A stretch of DNA of 64,000 nt from contig JACKGE010000001.1 of NCBI GenBank assembly GCA_020632155.1, positions 220,011 through 284,010 of the forward strand. The letters run 5' to 3'. This DNA is from Candidatus Nomurabacteria bacterium. GTDB taxonomy: Bacteria > Patescibacteriota > Minisyncoccia > Phycocordibacterales > UBA918. Under the pieces are notes generated by a model. That model was given only the letters and a program-made list of their open reading frames with translations. It did no database searches and was not told the origin of the DNA. The position numbers and the translations under genes are program-made. Positions 9,757-31,457 of the stretch are shown piece by piece; within the stretch, counting starts at the first letter, position 1, and every line of letters starts with the position of its first letter.

Positions 9757-9886
9757 TAGGATCATTTTTTAAATAGGGTTGAATTCGGAGTTTTCAACCT
9801 ACCACAAAACCATTTACAAAAAATGAATAATGTGTTATATTATTAGATAAGTGTGGCACCCGTCATACTACATTAGGGAGATCGAA

Positions 9887-10180
9887 ATGAATAAGATCAT
9901 CGTTCTTGCTGCTGCGGCAGCTCTCGCGCTTTCGGCTCGCACCGCCACCGCCGCCGACTACCTCGTGCAGGTGTCGACGACCGACGGAAAGGCACCCCTT
10001 TCTGTGACCATTCCCGGCTTCCAGGTCCAGAAGAAGGGGACCTTCAACTGGAACGGAAAGCGCTGGCGGAAGATCGTGGCGCGTGGCCCGGGCGTCCCTG
10101 CCAAGGTGTGCGATCACCAAGGCCGGTGTGTCCGTCTCACACGCAGTCCTCAGGGCGCTTACTCGGGCATCATGCAATGA
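9887..10180 (+). CDS. GC-rich small secreted protein (hypothetical)
   Basis: Internal ATG after an AGGGAG RBS gives MNKIIVLAAAAALALSARTATA signal peptide. About 62% GC versus about 40% in the flanks. Own terminator. Confidence 0.6.
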   Translation: MNKIIVLAAAAALALSARTATAADYLVQVSTTDGKAPLSVTIPGFQVQKKGTFNWNGKRWRKIVARGPGVPAKVCDHQGRCVRLTRSPQGAYSGIMQ

Positions 10181-10214: not shown

Positions 10215-10386
10215 CGCCTTTTTATACTATGTCCAGACCTGATCAAAGTTTCAGGGTAGTTGTTTTGAGTGTAAAATTTTAAGCAGAAGGTCCTTGATAA
10301 AAGATGTACATAAAGGTATAGTGCACGCACTTTTGCTAACGTATCAACGAAAGTCGTACTCTCGTATGGTAATATACTAAGGCATC

Positions 10387-10459
10387 CGCCTGTAGCTCAG
10401 TTGGTAGAGCAGCGGCCTTTTAAGCCGACGGTTCGGAGGTTCGAGCCCTCCCAGGCGGA
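10387..10459 (+). tRNA. tRNA-Lys (anticodon TTT)
   Basis: Cloverleaf folded by hand. Acceptor CCGCCTG/CAGGCGG, D-arm GCTCAGTTGGTAGAGC, anticodon loop CTTTTAA, T-arm GGAGGTTCGAGCCCTCC. No encoded CCA. Confidence 0.8.
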
Positions 10460-10460
10460 C

Positions 10461-11291
10461 ATGAAGTCCTTCAAACAACAATGTATTGAGTTGCGAAAGA
10501 AGGACCATACCCTGAATGAAATAGTACAAATTACTGGTCGAAGTAAAACGACAGTGTACTTTCATATTAGGAACATTCCTCTAAGCAAACAAAAGCGAAA
10601 AAAAATAAGTGAAGCGACCCGATGGCGTGCCCTTCGAGTTGCTGCTGCTCGCAAAGGAAAAGCCTTGCGACCGTTCAAGCCATTTCAAAGCTGGACACCC
10701 GAACTCGTTCTATTAGTTTCCCACCTTATGTTTGACGGGGAAATAACCAAATCAAAGTGTCGTTACCATAATAGAAGTGCGGCCCTGATAAAAAGGGTGG
10801 AGGACTTAATGCAGCTTGTGTACGATTACAAGGGAACAAAAAATACCGATACTACAAGCGGTGTTGTTACCGTAAGTTTCCATAACGTAGAACTTGAAAC
10901 ATTTTTGAAAAGTAAATCAAAAGAACTGCTAAAAAACATTCATGTTTTTTCGAGATCTAAACAGACAGAATTCCTCCGCGCATTTTTTGATGACGAAGGA
11001 TGCATGGACGTACGTTTGAACAAAAGCCTGCGTCGTATTCGTGGTTATCAAAACGACCAAGAGATTCTTAAACTCGTAAAACTGCTCCTAAAAAACTTTG
11101 ATATTGAATCAAAACTCCGTAAACCTAATGAGGTTGTAATTTCTGGTAAGGAAAATCTACGGAAGTTTCAAAAGGAAATAAATTTCTCTAAAGGGGTTAG
11201 ACTAAATCCTAATCGGACGAATAGTATTTGGAAAAAAGATATCGAAAAAAGGGAGCTGTTAGATATTGCTATTAGATCGTACCAGATATAA
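10461..11291 (+). CDS. HTH-containing LAGLIDADG-type homing endonuclease-like protein
   Basis: ATG is immediately 3' of tRNA-Lys (the ORF-track TTG at 10401 would read through the tRNA). N-terminal HTH (LNEIVQITGRSKTTVYFHI). Two LAGLIDADG-like motifs (LVSHLMFDGEI and FLRAFFDDEGCMD). Confidence 0.5.
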   Translation: MKSFKQQCIELRKKDHTLNEIVQITGRSKTTVYFHIRNIPLSKQKRKKISEATRWRALRVAAARKGKALRPFKPFQSWTPELVLLVSHLMFDGEITKSKCRYHNRSAALIKRVEDLMQLVYDYKGTKNTDTTSGVVTVSFHNVELETFLKSKSKELLKNIHVFSRSKQTEFLRAFFDDEGCMDVRLNKSLRRIRGYQNDQEILKLVKLLLKNFDIESKLRKPNEVVISGKENLRKFQKEINFSKGVRLNPNRTNSIWKKDIEKRELLDIAIRSYQI

Positions 11292-12239: not shown

Positions 12240-12518
12240 TTGAAAAATATGGAATACGTTATAGAAGATTCAAAAGAAGGCTACTTTGATGTATACCAGC
12301 ACCAAAACGGCAAGAAGTACATTGTTTTAGAAGGCCTTGATCCAAGGCAAGTACACGAACAGGGGAAAATAGAGCAGTTCACTCGAGCTCATTACAACGA
12401 ATTTGCATCAGCCTACTGGTTATTGCTCTTCATGACGATGATGTACCTCCTTTGTACATACATTATTTCACCTCTTTGGTATCGAGTGCAGAGTCCCCAT
12501 CACGTTTCAGGGCAATGA
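12240..12518 (+). CDS. small hypothetical protein with C-terminal hydrophobic helix
   Basis: ORF only. Overlaps the 3' end of the convergent 12463-14193 gene by about 55 nt. Confidence 0.25.
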   Translation: MKNMEYVIEDSKEGYFDVYQHQNGKKYIVLEGLDPRQVHEQGKIEQFTRAHYNEFASAYWLLLFMTMMYLLCTYIISPLWYRVQSPHHVSGQ

Positions 12519-14193
12519 TCTCATTGGCATAGGTTGGAAGAAAATAGGTATCGGTTGTTTTATTGTACACAACGGTATTGGTGATGCGTTCCACAGCTTG
12601 GAAATATCCTAGGTGAGTGCCGGTGCGTGGTTCAAGTTCGTGCAAACGAGCGGCATTGGTTCCAACGTACAAACGGCCATTGATAACAGTCGGACTCGAA
12701 AAGATACGTGTTCCATCAACGAGTACATCAAATAGTAGAGACAAAGAGTCGAGATTGATAGCTCGAACGCGTTTGTCAGCAGCAGTAAAGTAAACAGTAT
12801 CTTGGTATATGTATGGGGTAGAGAATATGCCGAATTCACATTTATGGTGATGAACTAAATGTCCCGTTTTGCGATCCAAAATGTACAAAAATCCATCTAT
12901 TGCGCCAAATATTATGTAGTCGTGTTTTTGAGAGTATGTGAAACTTTCTTTTATGTCCCCATTACTGTAACCAATATGACCTGTCTCAGGTACGAAGTCA
13001 GCGGCACCGAAAGTAGTAAATTTCCAAAGCACATAACCGGTACGGGCATCATGAAGCCTCACCACTCCATCGTTGGAACCAATGACCACTTGCTTGTGCT
13101 CAGCAATATAGTGGGGAGAGCAATGAGTCATAGCCATGTGAGTACGGTCAATCCATTTAGGCTCGCCACTCGCTACATCAAGAGCAATAATGCCACCACG
13201 TTTATTTATCAACCCAAACTCAAGTCCAATAAAAACTAACCCAAGCTCTTGCGACACAGCAGGGGATGATCCTACCCAGTCAGCTTCAAAGCATATCCAC
13301 TTGACCGCTCCAGTATGTTTATCCAGACAGTACACATTTCCATCGTAGCTGCCAAATATGACCGTATTTTTATATAGTGCTGGGTTAGAGAAAATCGCTT
13401 TCTTTCTTTGTACACTCCCGACTTGATATTTCCAGGCTACCGAACCATCCGCTTGATTAATGGCCCAAAATGTCCGATTGTCCGAACCGAAGTATATCTT
13501 ACTGTCGTCAATCACTGGTTGTGATTTGTTAACTACCCATTCCAAACTTGGTTTTTCACTGCGGAATCCCCATAGGGTACTGAAAGGCATGGCGATAGAT
13601 TCAGGTACTGTTTTGAGGCGCGTTTGGGCTTCGTCGCCAAGACTGTCAGCAAACTCATCGAGCGTAAATAATGACCGCACTTTTATTCCTCTCTGGTAAA
13701 AGCGCTTGTAGTAGGACTCATCTTGGTATCTGAGTATTGCCCAAACGGTATCGACAGTGTACCCATAATACTCTAGTACTTCTATTTGTCGCCAAAAGGT
13801 ATTGCCAGAGTTTATAACATCGTCAACAAGAATGATCTTTTTGTGTTCCTCAAGGGAGCCTTCTATCATTCGGGTCATTCCAGTCTTTTTTCTAGACTTT
13901 CGTATAAAGACAGCGTTACTGTCGGCGTGTCCTTGGGCGTAAAACTTGTTCATTAAAGATGTGGCGAGAGGTACGCCAGCTATCTCCTGTGCACAAATTT
14001 GAAACGGGTACTCAGTGTGAAACTGTTCATAAAATATGCTAGCGATGATATCAGCAGCTTTGCCGTTCATTAAGATCTCTCGAAAATTGAATGTCCATGC
14101 ACTGGGATCAGTTTGCATGGCTAATTGACCGTTCGTGTTTTTGAATATCACGTGATCTTTAATGATATTTCTTAGTGTTTCCAAGTCACTCAT
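12463..14193 (-). CDS. phosphoribosyltransferase domain fused to PQQ-like beta-propeller repeats
   Basis: N-terminal type I PRTase PRPP loop (KIILVDDVINSGNTF). C-terminal repeated YxGSxDGxxYxxDxxTGxxxW blades. Confidence 0.55.
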   Translation of the reverse strand: MSDLETLRNIIKDHVIFKNTNGQLAMQTDPSAWTFNFREILMNGKAADIIASIFYEQFHTEYPFQICAQEIAGVPLATSLMNKFYAQGHADSNAVFIRKSRKKTGMTRMIEGSLEEHKKIILVDDVINSGNTFWRQIEVLEYYGYTVDTVWAILRYQDESYYKRFYQRGIKVRSLFTLDEFADSLGDEAQTRLKTVPESIAMPFSTLWGFRSEKPSLEWVVNKSQPVIDDSKIYFGSDNRTFWAINQADGSVAWKYQVGSVQRKKAIFSNPALYKNTVIFGSYDGNVYCLDKHTGAVKWICFEADWVGSSPAVSQELGLVFIGLEFGLINKRGGIIALDVASGEPKWIDRTHMAMTHCSPHYIAEHKQVVIGSNDGVVRLHDARTGYVLWKFTTFGAADFVPETGHIGYSNGDIKESFTYSQKHDYIIFGAIDGFLYILDRKTGHLVHHHKCEFGIFSTPYIYQDTVYFTAADKRVRAINLDSLSLLFDVLVDGTRIFSSPTVINGRLYVGTNAARLHELEPRTGTHLGYFQAVERITNTVVYNKTTDTYFLPTYANEIIALKRDGDSALDTKEVK

Positions 14194-14325
14194 AGTCGGT
14201 AGTATATATGCTTTAGTATTCTTGGTAAAATTAGTCTAACTATTCGCACAAAATGCACAGGCATTTCTTTACACCTCGGGTGTTTTTTTGGTGTAGCTCG
14301 CGTGATAATATGTCAGTAAATCAGT

Positions 14326-15621
14326 ATGGTTGCTCTTAAAAAGTTATTGTTAGCCACGGGTCTTCTTTTGTTCGTGTTTATTCTTGCTGTAGTAGCTTGG
14401 TATTACTATTACTCGGTTCAAAAGTCACCCCCTACCTCCATTAACAATAAACTGTATTACTCTAAGGTAGCGGAAGACATATTTGTCGCTGTGGAGAGTT
14501 TTAGAAACGATGGTGCTACTGATGAAGAATTCTTGCGTTTCACCGAAGAGCAAGTAAGACAGTTAGATATGGACACACTGTATCCAATAGATCGCGCTTG
14601 GATGGAGCTCTTACTGGCTAGAGCTAAAGAAAAGATAGACCGCGATGCTGCTCTCCTAGGCTATGCAAAAGTTTATAACAAACCCGAATATGAACAGTTG
14701 TGGACTGTTAGGGGCAGTGCTTTAGCCTCAGCCATGTTGTACGCAACTGAAGTTGGCTCACCCCGCTTGAGCTTAGCGGAAGCCAAAGAATTAATCTTTA
14801 AACCGGATTTGTTTGGTCGTGCAGTAGGGATTGACTCAATAGACGAACTGAATCAAATAGAGACTGAGGAGGAACTTAGGTTATTGGTAGGCATTGGATT
14901 AGAAAAAGCAAGCCCTAACATTTTGTCTAAAGCTCGTGAGATGAGACTCGAAGTGGAGAGCCTCTTGCTTCAGTCTGGGACTATTTTAGAAAGATTGTAT
15001 AATAGTAATGATTCTGTCGAATTTACCTCAACTGAGGCCACGTCTCATCTCAACGAACACTTAGAACTTCATGCACAATACGATAGTATCAAGGAGCGAG
15101 CTGACGCACTAAATGCCGCAATACCAATTGTTATTTCCGACCGAAGCATATACTCATCTGAGGTACTTTACACACTAAACTATTTACAGCGTCTCTACAC
15201 CCAGCTGTTGTTTGTCGGATATGATGTGATGCCGTCCATACTTAACATGCATGAGTACTTGTCCGTTTACATCAATTTACATGGTAATGAACATGAGTTT
15301 GCTTTAGAAAGAACAAATATTATTCGAGCCAGCTCGGACTATCGCTTAGTGTGTGCGTTGATACTAGTGAACCAACAAGAAGGTGGAGATACGAACAAAC
15401 TTTCGGCTGAGAATGTTCTATTGAAGAGCCTTTACGATCTTTCGGAAGATGAACTCAGAGCTAACGGCTCGTTGCTTATTGACGCCGCCAAGAGGCCATA
15501 TTATCCTTGTCACCAAGCCTTTTTGACTCTTGGCAGAGAAAACCAAAGATTTGCTGATTTTTTAGTAAAGAATGTCGGAGGTTGGTCGTATGAACAATTT
15601 ACTTCGCCTAAAACCAATTAA
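14326..15621 (+). CDS. TOMM-cluster partner protein A1 (N-terminal TM anchor; paralog of 16068-17384)
   Basis: One N-terminal TM helix. Conserved blocks shared with its paralog: SALASAMLYATEVGSP, ILYTLNYLQRLYTQ, DAAKRPY.PC. The stop lies 10 nt before the precursor peptide. Confidence 0.6.
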   Translation: MVALKKLLLATGLLLFVFILAVVAWYYYYSVQKSPPTSINNKLYYSKVAEDIFVAVESFRNDGATDEEFLRFTEEQVRQLDMDTLYPIDRAWMELLLARAKEKIDRDAALLGYAKVYNKPEYEQLWTVRGSALASAMLYATEVGSPRLSLAEAKELIFKPDLFGRAVGIDSIDELNQIETEEELRLLVGIGLEKASPNILSKAREMRLEVESLLLQSGTILERLYNSNDSVEFTSTEATSHLNEHLELHAQYDSIKERADALNAAIPIVISDRSIYSSEVLYTLNYLQRLYTQLLFVGYDVMPSILNMHEYLSVYINLHGNEHEFALERTNIIRASSDYRLVCALILVNQQEGGDTNKLSAENVLLKSLYDLSEDELRANGSLLIDAAKRPYYPCHQAFLTLGRENQRFADFLVKNVGGWSYEQFTSPKTN

Positions 15622-15631
15622 TGCCTAGATT

Positions 15632-15955
15632 ATGATAAAAAGAAAGACCAAAAAATTTTTATATATACTTAGTGCACTAGTTAGCGTAGTGTTTGGTTAT
15701 ACCATCGGCAAAGATCATGCCGATTATACAAACTTCACGGCCGGCGACGTTTTTTTCAAGGAAGCCCAGGCTGATGTCCCACCACCTCCTTCGTGTGGAG
15801 GGGACACATATAGCTGTGGCGGCGGTGATGATGATGGTGGCTGCGGTGGCTGCGGCTGTGGTTGCGGCGGCGGTGATGATCATGGGGGCTGTGCTTGTAG
15901 TTGTGGTGCACCAGACTGTGGTCAGTGTGGGTCACCAGGCGATGAGCTTTATTAG
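15632..15955 (+). CDS. RiPP precursor peptide 1 (microcin B17-like Gly/Cys-rich core)
   Basis: 107 aa. N-terminal K-rich segment plus hydrophobic leader, then conserved GKDHADYTNFT, then a core rich in G/C/D/S (11 Cys, runs such as CGGCGCGCGGG) ending in GDELY. Confidence 0.6.
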   Translation: MIKRKTKKFLYILSALVSVVFGYTIGKDHADYTNFTAGDVFFKEAQADVPPPPSCGGDTYSCGGGDDDGGCGGCGCGCGGGDDHGGCACSCGAPDCGQCGSPGDELY

Positions 15956-16067
15956 TTCAGTCTCCCTAAACACTCGAAGTGAGATTTACACATGTTGTTC
16001 CGTAGTCCCGATGATTACTATCATTGTTGTGACTAAGTGTACGTGTTAGCATGTCTATGGTCTGATT

Positions 16068-17384
16068 ATGCGCAAGGTTAATAACTTTTTACGTCTCCTC
16101 CTACTCGTCCTTGCTTTATTGATGGTAGTGGTGATTGTGGGTATCGGGTTACTCTTTTTAAAAACACAATCAAACCCTCCGTCAGTTAATAACAAAGAAT
16201 TATATCTCAGTGATACAATCGCCACACTCCTTCAGTCTGCTCAAGAAAAACAAAATGAAGGCGTACCACCTGAAGACATCTTAGCCACTGTCGAGGCTCA
16301 CCTTGCTGAAATTGATGTTCAAGCATTAGCGCCAGTGGATCAGGCTTGGATTGCTCTAGAATGGGCTAGAGTTCACGAACCGATTGATAGAGATATGGCG
16401 CTACTTGAATATGCACGAATATACAATGAACCATCATACGAGTCGTTCATGCCGGTTCGTAATAGTGCTCTGGCTTCAGCCATGTTGTACGCAACCGAAG
16501 TAGGTTCACCGAAGTTATCTTTTATAGATGCCAAACGATTTATCTTCGCACCCGATCTATTTGGCCATGTAGTTGGCATTGATACACAACAAGCCCTCGA
16601 CGCTTTAAAGAGTGATGAAGACCTGCGATTGTTAGCTAGTATCGGGCTGAATCTTTCCAGTGGAGGTATGTTATCGTCCGCCCGTGAGTATCGATTGCAA
16701 GTTGAAAGCTTATTGTTGAAGTCAGAGCATTTGTTGTATCAACTGTACGAAAAAGATACGTCGATTGATTTCATTCCGATTGTTGCACAGCAAAGGTTAG
16801 GCCAAGACTCCTCAATACAAAAACAATTCGAAGAAATCTTTGCTCAAGCAAATAGTATTTTGACGGATCTTCCAGCAAATATCGCACGTCGTAACGCATA
16901 TGTTTCAGACATTCTATATACTCTCAACTATTTACAGCGCCTGTACACGCAGTTTGTTTTTATAGGATATGATGCCCTCCCGCCACTTGATACCTCTAGA
17001 CAGCTACTCAATTCGTACGTAATTACTCATCAGGACGACCATTCCTTTGCTGCACAGCGATCAAATGTCATCTTGGCTAGTTCAAATTATCGCTATGCTT
17101 GTGCATTGGTGATTCGAGACGAATTGGACGGTCAAGAACAATCTGTAGACAGCCGGATCATACGTTCGTTACTCGACGACATACGACAACTTTCAGAAAC
17201 AGACATTGAGGCAGGCAAATCACTTTTAGCTGACGCTGCTAAGAGACCATATTTGCCTTGTTCATACGCCTCAGTGGTAATCGGGACCGTTTATGACCCC
17301 TCCTTTGCTGATTTTCTGGTCGATGAAGTAGGGACATGGAGTCGTGATCAGTTTATGACCCCTAACGATGGTGCTAGTATATAA
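16068..17384 (+). CDS. TOMM-cluster partner protein A2 (paralog of 14326-15621)
   Basis: Same architecture and the same conserved blocks as A1, at about 45-50% identity by eye. Translationally coupled to peptide 2. Confidence 0.6.
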   Translation: MRKVNNFLRLLLLVLALLMVVVIVGIGLLFLKTQSNPPSVNNKELYLSDTIATLLQSAQEKQNEGVPPEDILATVEAHLAEIDVQALAPVDQAWIALEWARVHEPIDRDMALLEYARIYNEPSYESFMPVRNSALASAMLYATEVGSPKLSFIDAKRFIFAPDLFGHVVGIDTQQALDALKSDEDLRLLASIGLNLSSGGMLSSAREYRLQVESLLLKSEHLLYQLYEKDTSIDFIPIVAQQRLGQDSSIQKQFEEIFAQANSILTDLPANIARRNAYVSDILYTLNYLQRLYTQFVFIGYDALPPLDTSRQLLNSYVITHQDDHSFAAQRSNVILASSNYRYACALVIRDELDGQEQSVDSRIIRSLLDDIRQLSETDIEAGKSLLADAAKRPYLPCSYASVVIGTVYDPSFADFLVDEVGTWSRDQFMTPNDGASI

Positions 17385-17391
17385 TTAAAGT

Positions 17392-17670
17392 ATGTTGCAA
17401 AGAAAAACAAAACAAGCCATGTATCTTGTGGGTGCCCTTGTGGGGATCGTGTTTGGATACGTGGTAGGTAAAGATCATGCAAATTACGCCAGCTTTACTC
17501 CAGAAGACCTCTTTTCGAGTGAGGCGAGTGCAGACACACCAAGTTGTGGTGGTGGAGATGCCAGTTGCACACCAGGTGATGACGATAGTTGTGCTGGTGG
17601 CGGTTGTAGTTGTGGTGACGCATGTGGCGGTTGTAGTTGTGGTGGAGGACAGGGTGACGAGCTCTACTAA
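17392..17670 (+). CDS. RiPP precursor peptide 2 (Gly/Cys-rich core)
   Basis: 92 aa. Leader homologous to peptide 1 (GYVVGKDHANYASFT). Core SCGGGDASCTPGDDDSCAGGGCSCGDACGGCSCGGGQGDELY, 8 Cys. Confidence 0.6.
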   Translation: MLQRKTKQAMYLVGALVGIVFGYVVGKDHANYASFTPEDLFSSEASADTPSCGGGDASCTPGDDDSCAGGGCSCGDACGGCSCGGGQGDELY

Positions 17671-17690: not shown

Positions 17691-18917
17691 ATGTTTTTTA
17701 AGGAAGAGTTTAGGTTAAGTTTTATTCTGCAAGTGGCCTTGGCAGCCCTAGTTTTTTGTTATTTCATGGTCTTTGCTGATTGGGTGTCTCGATCAGCCAT
17801 AACACTTGATTCGGTCATTAATCATGCAGCACTGTGCCCAACTTATTTCCAGTCGTGTGAAAGTCTATACTTTTTGCGTGCACTCCCTGATGGATATTCC
17901 CAGAGCATGTGGTACATGCTCTTGTTTGGGAGTCTTATAGTAAGCGCTTACTTTCTCATCTGCCGCCGGTGGAGTGAAGCCCAGTGGATACTTTTGCCCG
18001 CATATGTGTGGCATACGCTAAATGTATTTGTACTTACGTATTACGGTAGTGGAAATTATGAATACTACGTCTTTGTTTTCGGCACGATTCTATTCTTTTT
18101 TCCACATAAAGAATTCTTTTTAAAGCTGACCCTAGTTCTGTTCTACGTCATGTCTACTGCCGCTAAAATCCATCCAGCATGGATAGCAGGAGGATACTTC
18201 ACGAACATGAGCTTAGGCCTCCCTGTCTTTCCTGAGTGGTCAATACCACTATTTACTAATCTTGTTATTGTGATGGAAATGGTCGGGGCATGGTTTTTGC
18301 TTTCAAAACATCCCCTCGTGCAGCGCACGGTCCTTTTATTTTTTGTAATCTTTCACCTCTATTCCGGTGTGTTGGTTGAATACCGCTATCCTGCTACGGT
18401 GTTGCCCATGCTTCTTATTGCCTTTGGTCCATGGTACCGTTATCAAAAGCCGCCATTAGATAAGAAGTCTGTCATTGGTTGGACGTTCATCGGCTTACTG
18501 TGTATTTTGCAACTTACTCCAAAAATGGTTGTGGGTGACGAAAAACTCACTCTTGAGGCGAACAAGTACGGCCTCTATATGTTCGAGTCCAATCATCAGT
18601 GCATCGTATCGGCTGAGTATATCTACACCGACGGACACGTAGACACATATATGGAAGTACATAACAATCCTCGCTTCCGCTGTGACCCATACATGTTTTG
18701 GTATCGATTCAACCATGTGTGTGAACAGGACCCCCGTCTTTCTCGCATCGCTTGGACCTTTGACCACTCCATTAATGGCGACCCCTTCTTACGTATTGTT
18801 GACACTGATAACGCCTGCGACCTAGAATACAAACCTTTCTCCCATAATGAATGGATCAAGACGTATACTGACAACCCTGAAGTGATCGGTTGGCCGGCAC
18901 AAAATGATTATCACTAG
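17691..18917 (+). CDS. HTTM-domain (vitamin K-dependent gamma-carboxylase-like) multi-pass membrane protein
   Basis: About 9 TM helices in the first 280 aa plus a soluble C-terminal domain. The segment LRALPDGYSQSMWYMLLFGSL resembles the VKGC/HTTM block [24 protein letters not shown]. Confidence 0.45.
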   Translation: MFFKEEFRLSFILQVALAALVFCYFMVFADWVSRSAITLDSVINHAALCPTYFQSCESLYFLRALPDGYSQSMWYMLLFGSLIVSAYFLICRRWSEAQWILLPAYVWHTLNVFVLTYYGSGNYEYYVFVFGTILFFFPHKEFFLKLTLVLFYVMSTAAKIHPAWIAGGYFTNMSLGLPVFPEWSIPLFTNLVIVMEMVGAWFLLSKHPLVQRTVLLFFVIFHLYSGVLVEYRYPATVLPMLLIAFGPWYRYQKPPLDKKSVIGWTFIGLLCILQLTPKMVVGDEKLTLEANKYGLYMFESNHQCIVSAEYIYTDGHVDTYMEVHNNPRFRCDPYMFWYRFNHVCEQDPRLSRIAWTFDHSINGDPFLRIVDTDNACDLEYKPFSHNEWIKTYTDNPEVIGWPAQNDYH

Positions 18918-20061
18918 AAGCAAAAGACATACGATGCTATGCGCCTTTGTGTGTGGACTTTTTTTTGCGCTTAGTGGTAGTTATCTATACACACTCATTG
19001 CTAATAGAGCCGTTACACCCGAAGTGCGTCCGGTTGTGTATGATAGAGAGCAACTGGCTAACGGAACGATCTACACAACCCTTGGTAATCAACAGGAGTT
19101 CAATCAAAAGTATGCTCACCAGCGGCCATATTTATTGGAGCTGGCCGCAGATGGCACTTTGGTTTGGTCTGAGTCGACCGAGAGTACTCCATTTCATTAT
19201 CAACGACTACCTAATGGTACCAAGGTATACGCCCTACATGATATTGACAGCAAGCGGTGGTCTGCACACTGGCATGTAATAGAACCTGATGGCTCAAAAC
19301 ACATTGTTCAAAGCCAAGAAATTGACCATACTGACTTTCATTTTTTATTACCGACTCCAACTGGAGAGTTTTGGGTACCAGGGTATAGATTGCAAGAATT
19401 AGAAGGACAAAAGGTAGAGTCTTTATGGCTTGAGTTGCAGAATCAGGCAGGTGAGGTGATGCAGTCATGGGATAGTTTGTCACATGTGAGTTTAGATTCA
19501 ACGCAGGCCACAGAAACACGAAAATATTGGCTGGAGCACGATATCAATGATTATTTTCACGGTAACAGCGCCACTTACGCACTCGATGGTGCACTTCTCA
19601 TCTCGGCTCGCAATACCAACCAAATATACAAGGTAGACCCCCAAACCGGTGAGGTAGTTTGGAGGTTGGGAGGGAAGGACAGCGATTTCAATATAATAGA
19701 TGATCCTCTCGGTGGTTTTTCTCATCAACATACCGTTAGCCAGTTAGGAAACGGGAATATACTTCTTTTTGACAACGGCAATCTACACCAACCGCAACAG
19801 TCTCGCGTTGTAGAGTACCAGCTTGATGAAGAGGCGATGACCGCTACGTATGTTTGGTCGTATACCGAAGCTGGTCGGTTTTCGTACGCGGCTGGCTCAG
19901 CTCAGCGGCTACCAAACGGCAATACGTTCATTAGTTGGGGGCTCGAGGTTGATGAGTCAAGTGGTAAAGCCAAAATAACGGAGGTCTCTCCGTTGGGAGA
20001 GAGGGTGCTGGAGATTTTTTTTGCTCCTGAGGTATTTTTCTACGACGCCTTCAAGCTATAG
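18904..20061 (+). CDS. arylsulfotransferase (ASST)-like beta-propeller protein
   Basis: N-terminal signal/anchor. ASST-family blocks FHGNSATYALDGALLISARNTNQIYKVD..GEVVW and HQHT....GNGNILLFDNGN. Confidence 0.55.
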   Translation: MIITRSKRHTMLCAFVCGLFFALSGSYLYTLIANRAVTPEVRPVVYDREQLANGTIYTTLGNQQEFNQKYAHQRPYLLELAADGTLVWSESTESTPFHYQRLPNGTKVYALHDIDSKRWSAHWHVIEPDGSKHIVQSQEIDHTDFHFLLPTPTGEFWVPGYRLQELEGQKVESLWLELQNQAGEVMQSWDSLSHVSLDSTQATETRKYWLEHDINDYFHGNSATYALDGALLISARNTNQIYKVDPQTGEVVWRLGGKDSDFNIIDDPLGGFSHQHTVSQLGNGNILLFDNGNLHQPQQSRVVEYQLDEEAMTATYVWSYTEAGRFSYAAGSAQRLPNGNTFISWGLEVDESSGKAKITEVSPLGERVLEIFFAPEVFFYDAFKL

Positions 20062-20116: not shown

Positions 20117-20440
20117 CTACTTGAAGACTTGGACTTGGTCGTCCTTCTCTCCATTTTTGTCTCGGGTCGAGAAGGTCACCTTATACTTCCCGCCGCCGAT
20201 ATCCTTGATGTTGATGGCGGCGCGGCCACCGGGCCAGCGTATCCGCCAACGGCCGTCCTTGACGCGGTCGGCCGTGTAGCACCGCCCCTTGTGGCAGTAG
20301 ATCGCTTTCTGGGCAGACACGACTCGCACCGAGGCGGCGCTGCCGTCGTTCCAGCGGCCGGAAGCTTTCTCACCGGCGGTTGCGGGAGCGGCTGCCAAGG
20401 CGGCAGCGATGGCAGCGACAACAAAGAACGCACGTTTCAT
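20117..20440 (-). CDS. GC-rich small secreted protein (hypothetical)
   Basis: MKRAFFVVAAIAAALAAAPATAGE signal peptide. About 63% GC. Sits between the ASST-like gene and sagB-like. Confidence 0.55.
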   Translation of the reverse strand: MKRAFFVVAAIAAALAAAPATAGEKASGRWNDGSAASVRVVSAQKAIYCHKGRCYTADRVKDGRWRIRWPGGRAAINIKDIGGGKYKVTFSTRDKNGEKDDQVQVFK

Positions 20441-20507: not shown

Positions 20508-21212
20508 TTAGTTTGAAAGAGTGAAAGTGTAGATTGGCTGTTCATCAAAAGGATCGAGCTCCAATACGTCGGTAATCTTTTCATCACGAAAGCCACCAAT
20601 AGGGCAGAAATGTAGGTTGGCCGTCTCAGCCGCTAAAGACAGATTTTGTCCAATATGACCTGCTTCTAGTAAGCAGAGATCATAAGCAAAATCAGAATAT
20701 TTTGGCGTATTTCGACTCCAGCGTGCGGTGAGAATTATGACTGCGAGTGCCTCGGTTTCGATGTCGGCTTTAAAGAGATCGTTAGTCGTTAGCTTTAGTG
20801 GCAACTCCCATAGTCTTTCCAAGACGTGCTCTTTGACTTGGTAATGGTACAGTGTTGGCCGAGCATCCGTCTCAAGCCGCGTACAAAGGTAGCATTCAAC
20901 GGGGTAAAAGGAACCGCCTGATGGGTATGGTCGGTGGTGATCCTTATGTTCTCGTAAGGCGAGACCAAACAGTGTTCCCAGTTGTTGGGGAGTTGGGTAG
21001 ATAGATGTGTCCGACCGGCGTCTTGACCGCCTCTTTTGTAGTAGTTCAACAAATGTATCAGTTGAAACGGGGTCTGGTAGTGGAATTTTTAGAAAACGGG
21101 GGTAGGTCTTACTCTGCTGTATTGCTGGCCAGAGTGATTCTGACGTGGCTGTTTTGCCTTTGTTAGTTCGGCGAATATATTGATGGATTCTAAGTGGCGT
21201 AAGGTTAAGCAT
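20508..21212 (-). CDS. SagB-type (TOMM) FMN-dependent dehydrogenase
   Basis: RRSRRR, YPSGGSFYPVECY and LLEAGHIGQNL..C.IGGF blocks typical of the SagB/ThcOx nitroreductase-fold family. The start is 9 nt after the ycaO stop. Confidence 0.8.
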   Translation of the reverse strand: MLNLTPLRIHQYIRRTNKGKTATSESLWPAIQQSKTYPRFLKIPLPDPVSTDTFVELLQKRRSRRRSDTSIYPTPQQLGTLFGLALREHKDHHRPYPSGGSFYPVECYLCTRLETDARPTLYHYQVKEHVLERLWELPLKLTTNDLFKADIETEALAVIILTARWSRNTPKYSDFAYDLCLLEAGHIGQNLSLAAETANLHFCPIGGFRDEKITDVLELDPFDEQPIYTFTLSN

Positions 21213-21220
21213 ATTGGTAT

Positions 21221-22669
21221 TTAAGCAAAAGGATGTGGGTAGGCTGTAAAGGGTGTAGGTAAAGATTGGTAACCAAATTTTTCTGGTACAGCGGATAGAC
21301 GTTTTCCCGTTACGTATGGTACACGTTCGTTTTGATGCATGGGTTGTAAATCAGGCATGACCACCATTTCAATATTCCAAGGAGACACGTTTCTTTTTGT
21401 TGAACCAACTGAGACTGAACATAGTTCGTAATTATTGTTCCTAGCCCAATTAACTATTCTTCGTAAATGATCACTCTCGGAGTCAGCCTCCCAGTTCTCG
21501 CTTGGGTTTGGTTCACTGGAGTCTGTTCCAGAAAGGAAGTACATATTACTAACTTGTTGAGGCTCAGCCCAGTAGTCCAATCGTTCAAGGTGGTTCAACT
21601 TCGACCCGTCTCTTTTTACAGATTGCTTGCCAGTACGAGACTGCCGATTCCTAATGGTTTGGCGTATGCGCAACGCTTCGAGCAGGGCTCCCTCAACGGC
21701 CGTACTCAAGCTATTATGCGCTTTAAGTCCTACCGTAAAAGCAGGAACATGTTCATGAGTGTCTTTGAGACTGGCACAAATTGCGTACGTTGGCGCATCT
21801 GTTACCATTCGAATTGCTGAAGGTTCAAGCTGGTATTTCTTGCACAACTCGAGTAGGCGTTGCAATTTTGGTGAAGTGTGAGCCAGATCAAGAAGGTTAA
21901 GTCTTGGTAACTTGAGTTGGTTGAGCCAAAGTATCATATAGGCATCACGTTCAATCACTTCTAGTGCTCCAGCAAGAACAGCTCCCTCACGTGTTGGCCA
22001 TGTTGCAAGACCGGTCGTAATCGGCATAAGGAGTATCGGCTCACGAGCGAGTTTTTTGTCACGGCAGCTATTGACCAGCTGGGCGGGCAAGTACAGCTGC
22101 TTCCCAGTGGTCCATGACTGACCCAAGGTCCAAGTGAATTTACTATCTGGAGCAAAAGAAAGCCGTCCATATTTTTCTCGTTGCTCTTTTGAGACGCCAG
22201 TTATTTGGTCCGGTGAGATGAACGAAATGGATTTTTTTTGCATCTCGTTTATGCTTGCGTACATTGGTTTTTTAAAATAGGAAGTGTCTTCAAACCATAA
22301 ATATCTTTCCACTGCTTCAGCCAAGGCAGCGATAAAGGCATCATAATCGCTGTCTATGGACATACCGCCGGCCCGTTGATTATCATGTGTGCCGCATGTC
22401 ACTGCCCAGTGGTATTGCAAGGGCTCATCATGGTAGCCAGTGATGGGACGATAGTTTTTTATTAGTTTGGCCTCAATCAGTTGTTGTGCTATGGAGAATA
22501 AAGGAATGAGATCTGTTCTTCCATAGGGTATATAGTTAGCATCGACTGTAACAGACGCATTAAAGTATTTTTCAATAAATGTTATCAAGGCTAACTTCGC
22601 ATCATCCGAAAATCCTTGCCTTCGTTTCCTAATAATCTCCGTTAACAGTAACGTATCGTGCATGACCAA
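21221..22669 (-). CDS. YcaO-domain cyclodehydratase (TOMM D protein)
   Basis: AEAVERY, ITTGLATW and ALEVIERDA motifs (ATP/Mg binding, ExxERD). C-terminus YPHPFA, like the PxPxP tail of azoline-forming YcaOs. Confidence 0.85.
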   Translation of the reverse strand: MVMHDTLLLTEIIRKRRQGFSDDAKLALITFIEKYFNASVTVDANYIPYGRTDLIPLFSIAQQLIEAKLIKNYRPITGYHDEPLQYHWAVTCGTHDNQRAGGMSIDSDYDAFIAALAEAVERYLWFEDTSYFKKPMYASINEMQKKSISFISPDQITGVSKEQREKYGRLSFAPDSKFTWTLGQSWTTGKQLYLPAQLVNSCRDKKLAREPILLMPITTGLATWPTREGAVLAGALEVIERDAYMILWLNQLKLPRLNLLDLAHTSPKLQRLLELCKKYQLEPSAIRMVTDAPTYAICASLKDTHEHVPAFTVGLKAHNSLSTAVEGALLEALRIRQTIRNRQSRTGKQSVKRDGSKLNHLERLDYWAEPQQVSNMYFLSGTDSSEPNPSENWEADSESDHLRRIVNWARNNNYELCSVSVGSTKRNVSPWNIEMVVMPDLQPMHQNERVPYVTGKRLSAVPEKFGYQSLPTPFTAYPHPFA

Positions 22670-22689: not shown

Positions 22690-23154
22690 TTGGGCCTACA
22701 AGATTCGGTGACAATTGGTAGTGACATGGCTACGCATGCTGGTTACAATGGTCTCTGTAGCATGAACAGACTTCCACCTTGTACGGTTTTATATCAAGGC
22801 AATTGTACCTTTTGTCGTTGGTGTATGAGACTGGTACTCAAAAACAGTCGAGAAGGGATGTTTACATTCATCCCGATTGAAAGTGAGGAGGGGAAGGCTC
22901 TCATTAAAGAGGGGTCTCTATCGATAAACCCTGAACATCCAGACAGTATTGCAGTATTAGTGTCTGACGAGAAGGTTTACTATAAATGGCAAGGTGGAGT
23001 AGAAATTGCTCGTCACACAACGTTTCCGTTTCGGTTGGTGTATTTTGTTGCGATGATGGTGCCGAGTTTTTTGGGAGATCGTATATATGACTGTATTGGT
23101 CGTCATCGGGCTCTGCTGTGTCGGTTGGTCCGATGTCGCCAAAGGCAGTCATAG
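22690..23154 (+). CDS. DCC-family (DUF393) thiol-disulfide oxidoreductase
   Basis: LYQGNCTFCRWC CxxC motif near the N-terminus and the downstream family pattern. The real start is probably the M of MNRLPPC at about 22762. Divergent from ycaO. Confidence 0.6.
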   Translation: MGLQDSVTIGSDMATHAGYNGLCSMNRLPPCTVLYQGNCTFCRWCMRLVLKNSREGMFTFIPIESEEGKALIKEGSLSINPEHPDSIAVLVSDEKVYYKWQGGVEIARHTTFPFRLVYFVAMMVPSFLGDRIYDCIGRHRALLCRLVRCRQRQS

Positions 23155-23207: not shown

Positions 23208-23573
23208 TTAGCGAAGATCTGGGTTTGGGTCAGTGCAGACGTCGATGAGGTATTTTCCGCTCAACCACTCGCCATCTAGGTGACCACTCACCTCCACCAC
23301 GTAACGGCAGGGCGTTTCGGGGAAGTCCAACGACAGCGTGTCGTTGTACCGGACTTCCGTACCGTTAAAGTCAACGCCCTGCCAAAGGTCATCGGCAGCA
23401 ACCTCGGGACGCAGCCGGACCTCTGTCCAGTTGACGGGCGTGTGGTTGGTGAAGACCACCCTAGTCATCTGTCCGTCATTGGTAGAGACGGTCGGTGTCG
23501 CCGCCAGCGCTGAGGCGGTTGCCAGCAAGCTGGCGATTATAGCGTGAAAGAACGATCTCATGATCTCCTCCAA
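23208..23573 (-). CDS. GC-rich small secreted protein (hypothetical)
   Basis: Signal peptide MRSFFHAIIASLLATASALAATP. About 62% GC. TTG or ATG start ambiguity. Confidence 0.5.
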   Translation of the reverse strand: MEEIMRSFFHAIIASLLATASALAATPTVSTNDGQMTRVVFTNHTPVNWTEVRLRPEVAADDLWQGVDFNGTEVRYNDTLSLDFPETPCRYVVEVSGHLDGEWLSGKYLIDVCTDPNPDLR

Positions 23574-23712: not shown

Positions 23713-24060
23713 TCAGAAGTTCATGAAGTGCAGGTGCGAAGCGACGACGTAGCGGCCGTCGAGTTCGACGAGGCCGAAACTGGCTCCACCCTCGCGGTGA
23801 GCCGTGCGGGCCGCCTGTTCGAGCAGTCCGATGTCGCTGTCGGGGTAGACCTGCATATGGCAGGCGCCGGCGGCGATGAGCGGCTCGAGGACCGACAGGA
23901 AGGCCGAATCGTCGGCCTCGGCCTGCAGGGACGGCGTATTCAGAGCCGACCCCATCAGAGCGCCGGCGTCGGTGACGTTGTCACAGGACACAATCTCGGC
24001 GGCCGCGGCGGGGAAGGCGCACGCGGTGACGATAAGAACGGATGCAAGAATCTTCTTCAT
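23713..24060 (-). CDS. GC-rich small lipoprotein / secreted protein (hypothetical)
   Basis: MKKILASVLIVTAC lipobox-like signal. About 66% GC. Confidence 0.5.
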   Translation of the reverse strand: MKKILASVLIVTACAFPAAAAEIVSCDNVTDAGALMGSALNTPSLQAEADDSAFLSVLEPLIAAGACHMQVYPDSDIGLLEQAARTAHREGGASFGLVELDGRYVVASHLHFMNF

Positions 24061-30605: not shown

Positions 30606-31457
30606 GTGTCCACGAGATGCGGTATATACTGTTTCAATATGCGAGGACGTGACATTAGTGTGCTATCCGTAGCGATAACGTTGCTGGCAGTGATAGTTGG
30701 AGGGGCGATATTATTGCGATCAGAGCAGTTGTTTTTTAGCGGCCAGCAAGATAATAAAACTGATTCAGCATTTACTTCAATAGCAGATGATTCATTCTCG
30801 AAAGCGCAGTATCACTTTGGTCATACAGAAGGAGCGTACGATCTGGTGTTAGCACGCCGGTACTATACTGACGTGACCCTTAACGCCACCGCTAAGTTCA
30901 ATAAGTCAGAAGTGTCCATGTCGTGGTACCAGCTAGCGCGCATCGATTTTTTAGAAGGTAAATATGGCTCCGCAGAGACAAAGCTCAAAATGCTTGAAAA
31001 AGAGTTTGGTGACAGTTTTTATAATGTGTATTACATCGAGGGTCTCGTCTACGGCTATCGCGCGCGCGATATTGGTAACAAGGAGGATTGGCAGCTAGCT
31101 GAAGAAGCATTTAAAAAATTTTTGGCAGTAAAACCAGAAAGTCCGTGGGCGCGTACCGACCTCTCGTGGGTCTACTTTGCACAAGGCAAGTTTGCTGACA
31201 TGATACCGGTTCTTGAAGAAGGACTTGAGTACGAACCAGAAAGTCCGTGGCTTCATAATATGTATGGCCTTGCGCTACTGAACACGGGACAGAACGACCT
31301 TGCTAACGAACATTTTAGTTTTGCACAAGAAAGAGCACGTCTACTCGATCCTGAGGGCTGGGGAGCAGCGTACCCAGGTAATGACCCAGCTGGTTGGGGG
31401 GTGGGTCTGGCGGAGTTTCAAGCGGTCATAGATGGTAATCTTCAACTTACAGAATAG
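30606..31457 (+). CDS. TPR-repeat protein with N-terminal TM anchor
   Basis: Repeated W/Y-L-G-x-A-Y 34-residue periodicity. Confidence 0.5.
   Translation: MSTRCGIYCFNMRGRDISVLSVAITLLAVIVGGAILLRSEQLFFSGQQDNKTDSAFTSIADDSFSKAQYHFGHTEGAYDLVLARRYYTDVTLNATAKFNKSEVSMSWYQLARIDFLEGKYGSAETKLKMLEKEFGDSFYNVYYIEGLVYGYRARDIGNKEDWQLAEEAFKKFLAVKPESPWARTDLSWVYFAQGKFADMIPVLEEGLEYEPESPWLHNMYGLALLNTGQNDLANEHFSFAQERARLLDPEGWGAAYPGNDPAGWGVGLAEFQAVIDGNLQLTE

What the first reader, a model, noticed from the sequence alone, without database searches (positions are those of the whole stretch)
14326..17384. Tandemly duplicated 430 aa partner gene, each copy translationally coupled to its own precursor peptide
The two proteins share an N-terminal TM helix and several near-identical blocks (SALASAMLYATEVGSP, ILYTLNYLQRLYTQ, DAAKRPY.PC). 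Each gene ends 7-10 nt before a peptide gene, so the module gene+peptide has been duplicated and has diverged. They could be leader-recognition (RRE/E1-like) scaffolds, export or immunity components, or proteases. No known family is recognised.
Basis: seen in the sequence. Interest (0 to 1): 0.7.

Follow-up and report, generated by a model that had tools for sequence, protein, structure and literature searches.

The report
Helical membrane partner of precursor peptides
Two diverged copies of a gene pair, a membrane-anchored all-helical protein of a previously undescribed family followed by a small signal-anchored Cys/Gly/Asp-rich peptide, sit in a thiazole-type (YcaO/SagB) peptide-modification cluster of an uncultured Parcubacteria-group bacterium; the large protein looks like a peptide-binding scaffold, not an enzyme or a classical YcaO partner.

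Summary
ORFs 14326-15621 (431 aa) and 16068-17384 (438 aa) are paralogs (44% identity, E 1e-121). Each is followed, after 10 and 7 nt, by a small ORF.

The proteins belong to a very small unannotated family. About 15 clusters were found among 1.84 billion representative proteins. There are no Pfam, NCBIfam or PADLOC hits, and none in GTDB species genomes.

In 10 of 11 family genes a peptide gene follows directly. Each peptide has a K-rich N-terminus, a TM helix, a 21-25-aa spacer, AxA|D, then a hypervariable G/D(C/S)-rich tail. YcaO lies nearby in 6 of 7 informative loci, with SagB seen in 4. One 20-kb locus has the pair without either.

The most likely role is a non-enzymatic, extracytoplasmic, cognate peptide-binding partner. 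Its exact role (maturation, retention or immunity) is unresolved. This is an interesting new family of unproven function.

The parts
14326..15621 (+). A1: 431-aa family member. N-terminal TM helix (res. 7-25) plus an all-alpha TPR-like solenoid. Invariant C343, C395, L413, W420, F425.
15632..15955 (+). P1: 107-aa peptide. K-rich N-terminus, TM helix 8-26, 21-aa spacer, AQA|D, then a 60-aa G/C/D-rich tail (11 Cys, net -10) ending GDELY.
16068..17384 (+). A2: 438-aa paralog of A1 (44% identity).
17392..17670 (+). P2: 92-aa paralog of P1 with a 45-aa tail (8 Cys) ending GDELY. The tail carries a 27-bp in-frame length polymorphism (17597-17623) relative to the near-identical contig L001.
17691..18917 (+). 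408-aa multi-pass membrane protein with a Cys-containing C-terminal domain. It lies directly downstream of the A-peptide unit in 5 loci. The family is widespread in Parcubacteria-group bacteria. Three of 18 family members scanned (not the window's own copy, which scored no family) gave weak, register-consistent hits to the vitamin-K gamma-carboxylase lumenal domain.
18904..20061 (+). TM-anchored arylsulfotransferase (ASST)-like beta-propeller. Found only in this cluster and its near-identical copy L001.
20508..21212 (-). SagB-type (azoline oxidase-like) flavin dehydrogenase.
21221..22669 (-). TOMM/SagD-type YcaO (score below the NCBIfam cut-off). C-terminus HPFA. No fused or adjacent E1-like or RRE partner.
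22690..23154 (+). DCC1-like thiol-disulfide oxidoreductase. It accompanies the 408-aa membrane protein in several loci.
12463..14193 (-). Phosphoribosyltransferase plus PQQ-like beta-propeller fusion. A conserved flank of the A gene in most loci (65-71% identity), divergently transcribed from A1.
12240..12518 (+). 92-aa C-terminally TM-anchored small protein (YDVYxHxxGxKYIVLEGL motif), conserved in the same neighbourhood.

Best explanation
A1 and A2 are non-enzymatic, membrane-tethered helical-repeat (TPR-like) proteins. Their roughly 390-aa acidic domain faces the outside of the cell, probably stabilised by one disulfide (C343-C395).

Each binds the peptide encoded just downstream. That peptide is inserted by its own Sec-type signal-anchor and exposes a conserved 21-25-aa spacer, an AxA|D junction and a hypervariable acidic G/D/C-rich tail on the same side of the membrane. 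There the A protein acts as a dedicated handling partner. It holds or presents the peptide for processing at AxA|D and/or for the neighbouring conserved membrane protein, or it retains or sequesters the product at the surface.

In this genome the Cys/Gly-rich tails are additionally substrates for the cytoplasmic YcaO/SagB azole-forming pair before export.

Shown: paralogy, family membership, fold class, conserved gene pairing, and frequent YcaO co-location. Inferred: orientation, the disulfide, physical binding, and the order of events.

For: 2. No enzyme signature. The invariant columns are only C343, C395, L413, W420 and F425. No family hit appears in any of 17 members.

3. Pairing. In 10 of 11 distinct family genes a small ORF of the same architecture starts 7-45 nt downstream. 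When the gene duplicated, the peptide duplicated with it.

4. Orientation.
- The N-terminal flank of the single TM helix is net positive in nearly all members.
- The domain has exactly two Cys in 16 of 17 members, both invariant.
- The peptides have +3 to +5 N-flanks and acidic tails.

5. Rate of change. A is the fastest-diverging gene of the neighbourhood. Window versus L002: A 29-30%, SagB 43%, YcaO 52%, 408-aa membrane protein 60%, PQQ fusion 71%, Mur ligase 73%. This parallels the hypervariable tails.

6. Independence from YcaO. The pair persists without YcaO/SagB in a 20-kb locus, L008. So the A-peptide relation does not depend on YcaO.

7. Co-variation. A and peptide-leader identity matrices correlate (Mantel r 0.52, p about 0.002). 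This is not independent of phylogeny.
Against:
- The fold match is generic. Foldseek found nothing at E <= 1e-3, and no TPR HMM hits.
- Both the A domain (net -9 to -50 in 15 of the 17 aligned members, including the P0009 fragment; -1 and +8 in the other two) and most tails (net -7 to -20) are acidic. That disfavours direct tail binding unless cations bridge them, or the spacer or C-terminus is what is bound.
- Orientation rests on the positive-inside rule and Cys counting only.
- If the tail is exported co-translationally, a cytoplasmic YcaO could not reach it.
- In L002 the peptide gene is 2.8 kb away from A.
- TOMM-type YcaOs normally need a partner protein, and A is the only conserved candidate of unknown function.
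Confidence: 0.4

Rival explanations
1. A is a cytoplasm-facing, membrane-tethered leader-binding scaffold. It replaces the missing E1-like/RRE (C-protein) partner of the TOMM-type YcaO and presents the precursor to YcaO/SagB at the membrane before export.
For: - YcaO lies within about 5 kb of the A gene in 6 of 7 informative loci: the window, L002, L004, L007, L011 and L013. In L002 and L013 it is directly adjacent.
- Loci that have the 408-aa membrane protein but no A family (L009, L010) also lack YcaO.
- No E1-like, ocin-ThiF-like, TfuA or RRE protein is found in any of these clusters.
- All Cys-bearing tails occur in YcaO loci.
- The fold is of a peptide-binding type.
Against: - Positive-inside signals and the two invariant Cys argue for an outside-facing domain.
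- L008 keeps A plus peptide without YcaO/SagB in 20 kb.
- The fold is unrelated to any known YcaO partner; it has no beta-sheet.
- L011 has YcaO but a Cys-free tail.
- A diverges much faster than the peptide leader (A1 versus the L002 homolog 28%, P1 leader versus the L002 leader 58%).
Confidence: 0.2
2. A is a self-protection (immunity) protein. It is tethered on the cell surface and sequesters the mature, possibly toxic, azole-containing peptide, in the manner of membrane-anchored LanI-type lantibiotic immunity proteins. Each toxin then has its own cognate protector.
For: - One-to-one gene pairing and co-duplication.
- Fastest divergence in the neighbourhood, tracking hypervariable tails.
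- Predicted outside-facing domain.
- The only differences between two otherwise identical 12.3-kb contigs fall in A2 and in the P2 tail.
Against: - Many partner peptides are plain (DG)n or G/D/S/Y-rich tails without Cys. One locus has no modifying enzymes. These are unlikely toxins.
- No transporter or other immunity gene is present.
- At 430 aa the protein is large for an immunity protein.
- No homology to any known immunity family.
Confidence: 0.15
3. A and its peptide form an RRNPP-like (Rap-Phr type) signalling cassette. A TPR receptor gene is followed by a gene for a Sec-exported propeptide. Here the receptor senses the peptide outside the cell.
For: - The gene order, receptor then small signal-bearing peptide, is the same.
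- A short conserved C-terminal motif [GS]DExx is present in 6 peptides.
Against: - There is no output domain (no HTH, no phosphatase module). Only a TM helix with a cytoplasmic stub of a few residues.
- The peptides are long, low-complexity and acidic, unlike Phr-type propeptides.
- No oligopeptide permease is linked.
Confidence: 0.1
4. A is an unrelated fast-evolving surface protein of these episymbiotic bacteria. It is merely co-transcribed with a small acidic surface peptide, without a specific interaction.
For: - The pair lies inside a syntenic neighbourhood that is otherwise housekeeping-like (PolA, SpoU, Mur ligase, RuvA).
- Similar small TM+AxA|D peptides exist in loci without the A family (L009, L010).
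- Both partners are acidic.
Against: - Immediate adjacency is kept across homologs that share only 21-30% identity.
- Gene and peptide duplicated together.
Confidence: 0.1

Closest known systems
RRNPP receptor-propeptide cassettes (Rap-Phr, NprR-NprX, PlcR-PapR, AimR-AimP)
   Different: - A has an N-terminal TM anchor and probably faces outward.
- It has no DNA-binding or phosphatase module.
- It matches no TPR HMM.
- The peptides are 80-130 aa with long acidic low-complexity tails and sit in a YcaO/SagB context.
TOMM/LAP heterocyclase scaffold proteins (McbB of microcin B17, SagC, E1-like/ocin-ThiF-like C-proteins with an RRE)
   Same: - It occurs in clusters with a SagD-type YcaO and a SagB/McbC-type dehydrogenase.
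- It sits next to precursors whose Gly/Cys-rich cores resemble McbA in composition (from my own knowledge of McbA).
- It could supply leader recognition.
   Different: - No sequence or fold relation: all-alpha with no beta-sheet, no Zn-tetrathiolate, and no ThiF or RRE hit.
- It is membrane-anchored with predicted outside orientation.
- It also occurs without YcaO (L008).
Membrane-anchored bacteriocin immunity proteins (e.g. LanI lipoproteins NisI/SpaI)
   Same: A surface-tethered protein encoded one-to-one with a peptide, fast-evolving and non-enzymatic.
   Different: No homology. The fold differs (my recollection is that LanI proteins are beta-rich). The anchor is a TM helix rather than a lipid. 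The partners include apparently unmodified (DG)n tails.
B. subtilis SdpABC / YitPOM toxin maturation
   Same: A precursor with an N-terminal secretion signal is processed after export with the help of dedicated accessory proteins, one of them a multi-pass membrane protein (PMC6818787). Here a conserved multi-pass membrane protein and a small thiol-oxidoreductase-like protein accompany the pair.
   Different: NCBIfam SdpA/SdpB models do not hit the local proteins. SdpABC has no counterpart of A and no YcaO/SagB.

Membership tests
RiPP recognition element (RRE, PqqD-like winged helix) | A domain of about 90 aa with three helices plus a three-stranded beta-sheet that pairs with the leader; detectable by PqqD/RRE profiles. 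| tested here: not met
   The AF2 model (pLDDT 89.7) has no strand of 3 or more residues anywhere, only three isolated bridge residues. No Pfam or NCBIfam hit in A1/A2, and no consistent Pfam hit in any of 17 members.
E1-like / ocin-ThiF-like TOMM C-protein | An alpha/beta Rossmann-like ThiF/E1 fold; hits to ThiF or TOMM cyclodehydratase partner models; usually adjacent to or fused with YcaO. | tested here: not met
TPR repeat proteins (Pfam clan TPR) | Tandem 34-residue helix-turn-helix repeats recognisable by TPR HMMs. | tested here: inconclusive
RRNPP quorum-sensing receptors | A cytoplasmic TPR receptor with an N-terminal effector module (HTH or Rap 3-helix phosphatase domain). | tested here: not met
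   The N-terminus is a single TM helix with a stub of only a few residues. No HTH or other domain hit.
RRNPP quorum-sensing receptors | An adjacent downstream gene for a small exported propeptide. | tested here: met
   10 of 11 family genes are followed within 7-45 nt by a signal-bearing small ORF.
LanC-like alpha/alpha-toroid cyclases | Cys-Cys-His zinc site, conserved GxxG/WCxG/CHG motifs, and a PF05147 hit. | tested here: not met
Leader peptidases (Cys, Ser or metallo) | Invariant catalytic dyad or triad, or a metal-binding motif. | tested here: not met
   The invariant columns are C343, C395, L413, W420 and F425 only. No invariant His, Ser, Asp or Glu.
TOMM/LAP biosynthetic cluster (for the whole locus) | A YcaO cyclodehydratase, a SagB-type dehydrogenase and a Cys/Ser/Thr-rich core peptide. 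| tested here: met
   - YcaO: Pfam E 7e-40; TIGR03604 scores 180 bits, below its 219 cut-off.
- SagB: TIGR03605 scores 113.8 bits, above its cut-off.
- Nearest solved relatives: MusD/LynD for YcaO, and CyaGox/McbC/BmdC for SagB.
- Cores: 11 and 8 Cys.
TOMM/LAP biosynthetic cluster (for the whole locus) | A recognised partner (C/F protein) for the YcaO, and a cytoplasmic leader peptide. | tested here: not met
   No partner was found in the clusters where neighbours were scanned. The 'leader' is a K-rich signal-anchor followed by a spacer.

The most novel reading that the evidence does not exclude
The A proteins are the peptide-specific, extracytoplasmic recognition modules of a previously undescribed exported-peptide pathway in Parcubacteria-group (CPR) bacteria. 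In it a signal-anchor plus a conserved spacer (xKD...AxA|D) replaces the classical RiPP leader. The acidic tail is handled outside the cell by A together with a widely conserved, distantly vitamin-K-carboxylase-like membrane protein and a DCC-type thiol oxidoreductase. That membrane protein may act on the single conserved Glu in the C-terminal [GS]DExx motif. Azole formation by YcaO/SagB would be an optional add-on in Cys-bearing variants.
Probability: 0.15. Interest if true: 0.85.

Novelty: new variant of a known kind. Interest (0 to 1): 0.6.

Why it matters
Natural-product or RiPP clusters appear to be rarely reported from CPR/Patescibacteria: three full-text literature searches found no description of this system. 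This is my own impression, not a measured rate.

This cluster combines a TOMM-type YcaO/SagB pair that lacks every known partner protein with precursors whose 'leader' looks like a Sec signal-anchor. It also has a dedicated, fast-evolving helical protein of a family with no annotation anywhere.

If A binds its peptide, it would define a new kind of precursor or product recognition protein. It would also point to a route in which modified peptides are handled on the outer face of the membrane.

The family also gives a handle (an HMM plus the peptide architecture) for finding more such loci. Even if A is only a scaffold or protector, the strict gene-peptide pairing and co-duplication make it a tractable specificity system.

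Tried and rejected
- RRE or E1-like fold: rejected. The model is all-alpha and no profile hits.
- Protease: rejected, for lack of invariant catalytic residues.
- Homology of A to the neighbouring TM-anchored TPR protein (30606-31457 and its orthologs): hhalign probability 0.5%.
- Homology of A to the positionally analogous 432-aa TM-anchored protein of L009: hhalign probability 0.5%. A database search with that protein returned nothing.
- PDB sequence search with the family profile: matched only via the TM helix.
- Foldseek against PDB and BFVD: no hit at E <= 1e-3. The afdb50 library was unavailable.
- Pattern scans of GTDB species genomes (2 scans) and JGI metagenome contigs (2 scans): no confirmed relatives. 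One alignment was too diverse to search with.
- A strict 'Cys in tail = YcaO present' rule fails. L011 has YcaO/SagB but a Cys-free tail.
- SdpA/SdpB membership of the DCC1-like and 408-aa proteins: no NCBIfam hit.
- Rfam: only tRNAs in the window.
- PADLOC: nothing for A.
- Literature searches found no description of this system.
Full report
OBSERVATION

The two ORFs are at the stated coordinates: A1 at 14326-15621 (431 aa) and A2 at 16068-17384 (438 aa). They are clear paralogs, with 44% identity over 406 aa and E 1e-121.

Small ORFs P1 (15632-15955, 107 aa) and P2 (17392-17670, 92 aa) start 10 and 7 nt after the respective stop codons. They are 55% identical over their N-terminal 76 residues, and both end in GDELY.

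At the DNA level only three collinear blocks remain similar, at a constant offset of 1748 nt. This is an old tandem duplication of the A+P unit.

There is no overlap, no obvious Shine-Dalgarno motif before the peptide starts, and no terminator-like site between the genes. Co-transcription is therefore likely. Translational coupling is plausible but not shown.

ORIGIN

The exact A1 sequence is recorded as a hypothetical protein of a 'Candidatus Nomurabacteria bacterium' MAG, on a 487-kb contig. That taxon belongs to the Patescibacteria/Parcubacteria group. The exact 408-aa neighbour carries a 'Candidatus Kaiserbacteria bacterium' label from another deposit.

A Logan contig (L001) is identical to the window over 12.3 kb, except for two changes:
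- a 1-bp deletion in an A5 run, which frameshifts A2;
- a 27-bp in-frame deletion in the repeat-rich P2 tail.

THE FAMILY

Pfam, NCBIfam and PADLOC give nothing for A1 or A2. The word-indexed search of 5.8 billion proteins found only the protein itself and the L001 copy of A2.

An exhaustive HMMER search of 1.84 billion cluster representatives, using the paralog profile, found 18 proteins at E <= 1e-3. One is a repeat artefact. The other 15 new ones are 400-492 aa, apart from one 204-aa fragment.

Alignment of 17 members shows 17-27% identity to A1 outside the paralog pair. Five columns are invariant (C343, C395, L413, W420, F425) and Met137, Gly298 and Gly418 are nearly so. The C-terminal signature is C-[YH]-x-P-[FY]...G.....F..L[IV]..[VI]GGW...QF.

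Every full-length member has a single N-terminal hydrophobic helix, with a net-positive N-flank in nearly all members. The remaining domain is acidic in 15 of the 17 aligned sequences, counting the 204-aa fragment P0009 (net -9 to -50; -1 and +8 in the other two). It contains exactly two cysteines, the invariant ones, in 16 of 17 members.

No member scores consistently against any Pfam model, and the family profile matches no PDB sequence beyond the TM helix. Pattern scans of GTDB species genomes and JGI metagenomes found no further members.

STRUCTURE

With the 17-sequence alignment, AlphaFold2 gives a confident model: mean pLDDT 89.7 and pTM 0.84, with 20 helices after the TM helix and no strand of 3 or more residues.

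Foldseek against the PDB and the viral library finds nothing at E <= 1e-3, and its best rows are again TPR, Sel1 or SNAP repeats.

So the fold class is a helical-repeat binding scaffold. This excludes the RRE winged helix and the E1-like alpha/beta fold. There is no specific structural relative.

PARTNER PEPTIDES

I recovered the genomic context of nine homologs. In 10 of 11 distinct family genes a small ORF starts 7-45 nt downstream. The exception is L002, where the peptide gene lies 2.8 kb upstream, beyond a divergent SagB-YcaO pair.

All peptides share one architecture:
- a Lys-rich N-terminus (net +3 to +5 in all but the partial L013 peptide, +1);
- a hydrophobic helix of about 19 residues beginning near a conserved Tyr;
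- [GS]KD directly after the helix;
- a spacer of constant length (21-25 residues; 28 in the partial L013 peptide);
- an A-x-A|D junction (VQA|D and AHG|D in two cases);
- a hypervariable, low-complexity tail rich in Gly and Asp, with or without Cys, Ser or Tyr.

The tails are net -7 to -20, with one basic exception in L006. Six peptides end in [GS]-D-E-x-x, and in four of them that motif holds the only Glu of the tail (L002 and L004 have two).

The window's tails (11 and 8 Cys, with GCGGCGCGCGG-type runs) resemble microcin-B17-type cores in composition. That comparison is from my own knowledge, not a test.

NEIGHBOURHOOD

The window cluster also holds:
- a SagD-type YcaO (Pfam E 7e-40; nearest solved relatives MusD and LynD);
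- a SagB-type dehydrogenase (TIGR03605 above its cut-off; nearest solved relatives CyaGox, McbC, BmdC);
- a 408-aa multi-pass membrane protein;
- an ASST-like propeller;
- a DCC1-like thiol-disulfide oxidoreductase;
- a PRTase-PQQ-propeller fusion.

A YcaO lies near the A gene in 6 of 7 loci with enough flank: the window, L002, L004 (fragment), L007, L011 and L013. A SagB gene accompanies it in the window, L002, L007 and L011. L008, at 20 kb, has A, a Cys-free peptide, the membrane protein and DCC1 but neither YcaO nor SagB.

All five Cys-bearing tails are in YcaO loci, but L011 has YcaO/SagB with a Cys-free (DG)n tail.

No E1-like, ThiF-like, TfuA or RRE protein is present in the clusters where the neighbours were scanned. 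All five YcaOs end in HPF[AP].

The 408-aa membrane protein is far more widespread: 444 or more hits, all ~50-60% identical, in Kaiserbacteria and Paceibacteria. It also occurs without the A family and without YcaO in L009 and L010. Those loci still carry TM+AxA|D+G/D/Y-rich small proteins. In L009 such a peptide is followed by a 432-aa TM-anchored protein with no detectable homology to A.

Divergence between the window and L002 ranks as follows:

| Protein | Identity, window vs L002 |
|---|---|
| Mur ligase | 73% |
| PQQ fusion | 71% |
| 408-aa membrane protein | 60% |
| YcaO | 52% |
| DCC1-like | 50% |
| SagB | 43% |
| A | 29-30% |

A is the fastest-evolving gene. The peptide leader is better conserved: P1 against the L002 leader is 58%.

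INTERPRETATION

What is shown:
- A1 and A2 belong to a rare, unannotated family of single-pass membrane proteins with a TPR-like helical domain.
- The family has no catalytic-type conservation.
- It is encoded one-to-one with a characteristic signal-anchored peptide.
- It is usually, but not always, near an azole-forming YcaO/SagB pair.

What I infer:
- The domain faces outward, from the positive-inside rule and the two invariant Cys as the only Cys.
- It binds its cognate peptide on that side.

The acidic tails fit membrane-potential-driven export (general knowledge of procoat-type insertion). YcaO/SagB, which are cytoplasmic and ATP/FMN-dependent, would have to act before export.

I therefore favour a non-enzymatic handling, retention or presentation partner (confidence 0.4). 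The rivals are:
- a cytoplasmic YcaO scaffold (0.2), supported by co-location and the missing C-protein, opposed by topology and L008;
- a surface immunity protein (0.15);
- an RRNPP-like signalling cassette (0.1);
- mere co-expression (0.1).

The main weakness is that no interaction test could be run, and both partners are acidic.

COMPARISON AND NOVELTY

The nearest analogues are Rap-Phr-type cassettes, which share the fold class and gene order but not the effector module or location. TOMM C-proteins share the context but not the fold. The membership tests for RRE, E1-like, RRNPP, LanC and protease families fail. TPR membership is inconclusive: fold yes, HMM no.

I class it as a new variant of a known kind, namely a helical-repeat peptide partner in a RiPP-like cluster. 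It is embedded in a neighbourhood whose overall logic (signal-anchor 'leader', no YcaO partner, a conserved unannotated membrane protein) is not described in the papers I could search.

Noticed in passing
window 17691-18917 (+); homologs P0019-P0138: The 408-aa multi-pass membrane protein is highly conserved (about 50-60% identity, 444 or more hits) across Kaiserbacteria and Paceibacteria and carries no Pfam annotation. The window's own copy scored no Pfam family. Of 18 family members scanned, 3 gave sub-threshold hits to PF22777, the vitamin K-dependent gamma-carboxylase lumenal domain (E 0.0073, 0.043 and 1.1). All three align the same C-terminal part of the protein to the same part of the profile. 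The segment YVMSTAAKIHPAWIAGG recalls, from memory, the HTTM/GGCX Y..AG..K...W..G motif. A family profile found no PDB sequence match.
   Followed up: partly
window 9851-10180 (+), 20117-20440 (-), 23208-23573 (-), 23713-24060 (-): Four small ORFs with signal peptides have 57-65% GC (GC3 71-82%). The cluster genes measured around them (A1 to DCC1, and the PQQ fusion) have 42-50% GC and GC3 34-48%. The four are not detectably related to each other. The two that were scanned (9851-10180 and 20117-20440) have no Pfam hit. One sits between the ASST-like gene and SagB. They look like compositionally foreign insertions.
   Followed up: partly
window 16246 and 17597-17623 versus L001: A second assembly of the same strain (Logan SRR12358675) is identical over 12.3 kb except in two places. 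One is a 1-bp deletion in an A5 run that frameshifts A2. The other is a 27-bp in-frame deletion that removes DACGGCSCG from the repeat-rich P2 tail. So the only variation falls in the second A-peptide module. The frameshift could be an assembly error.
   Followed up: partly
window 18904-20061 (+): A TM-anchored arylsulfotransferase (ASST)-like propeller is present only in this cluster. Both peptides end in GDELY, a Tyr in acidic context, which raises the untested idea of tyrosine sulfation outside the cell.
   Followed up: no
L009 11362-12870; L010 7614-7913: Kaiserbacteria loci without the A family and without YcaO still encode small proteins of the same design: TM helix, AxA|D, then a DVPYxQSSYYSQ- or G/D-rich tail. 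In L009 such a peptide is followed by a 432-aa TM-anchored protein with no detectable homology to A. The peptide-plus-large-partner arrangement may therefore be much broader than the recognisable family.
   Followed up: partly
window 10386-10460 and 10401-11291 (+): A 296-aa ORF with a LAGLIDADG_3 domain (Pfam E 8.5e-13) begins inside or next to tRNA-Lys(UUU).
   Followed up: no
window 14271-14290 (+): A terminator-like hairpin (ACACC-TCG-GGTGT) followed by T7 lies 43 nt upstream of the A1 start, in the divergent intergenic region. It is a possible attenuator or a chance match. Rfam finds no known RNA family there.
   Followed up: no
window 12240-12518 (+) and 12463-14193 (-): A 92-aa tail-anchored protein (YDVYxHxxGxKYIVLEGL motif) and a PRTase-PQQ-propeller fusion are conserved together next to the A gene or the 408-aa protein in most loci (the propeller 65-71% identical among the A-family loci, 33-38% in L009 and L010). 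This suggests a larger conserved module of unknown function in these bacteria.
   Followed up: partly
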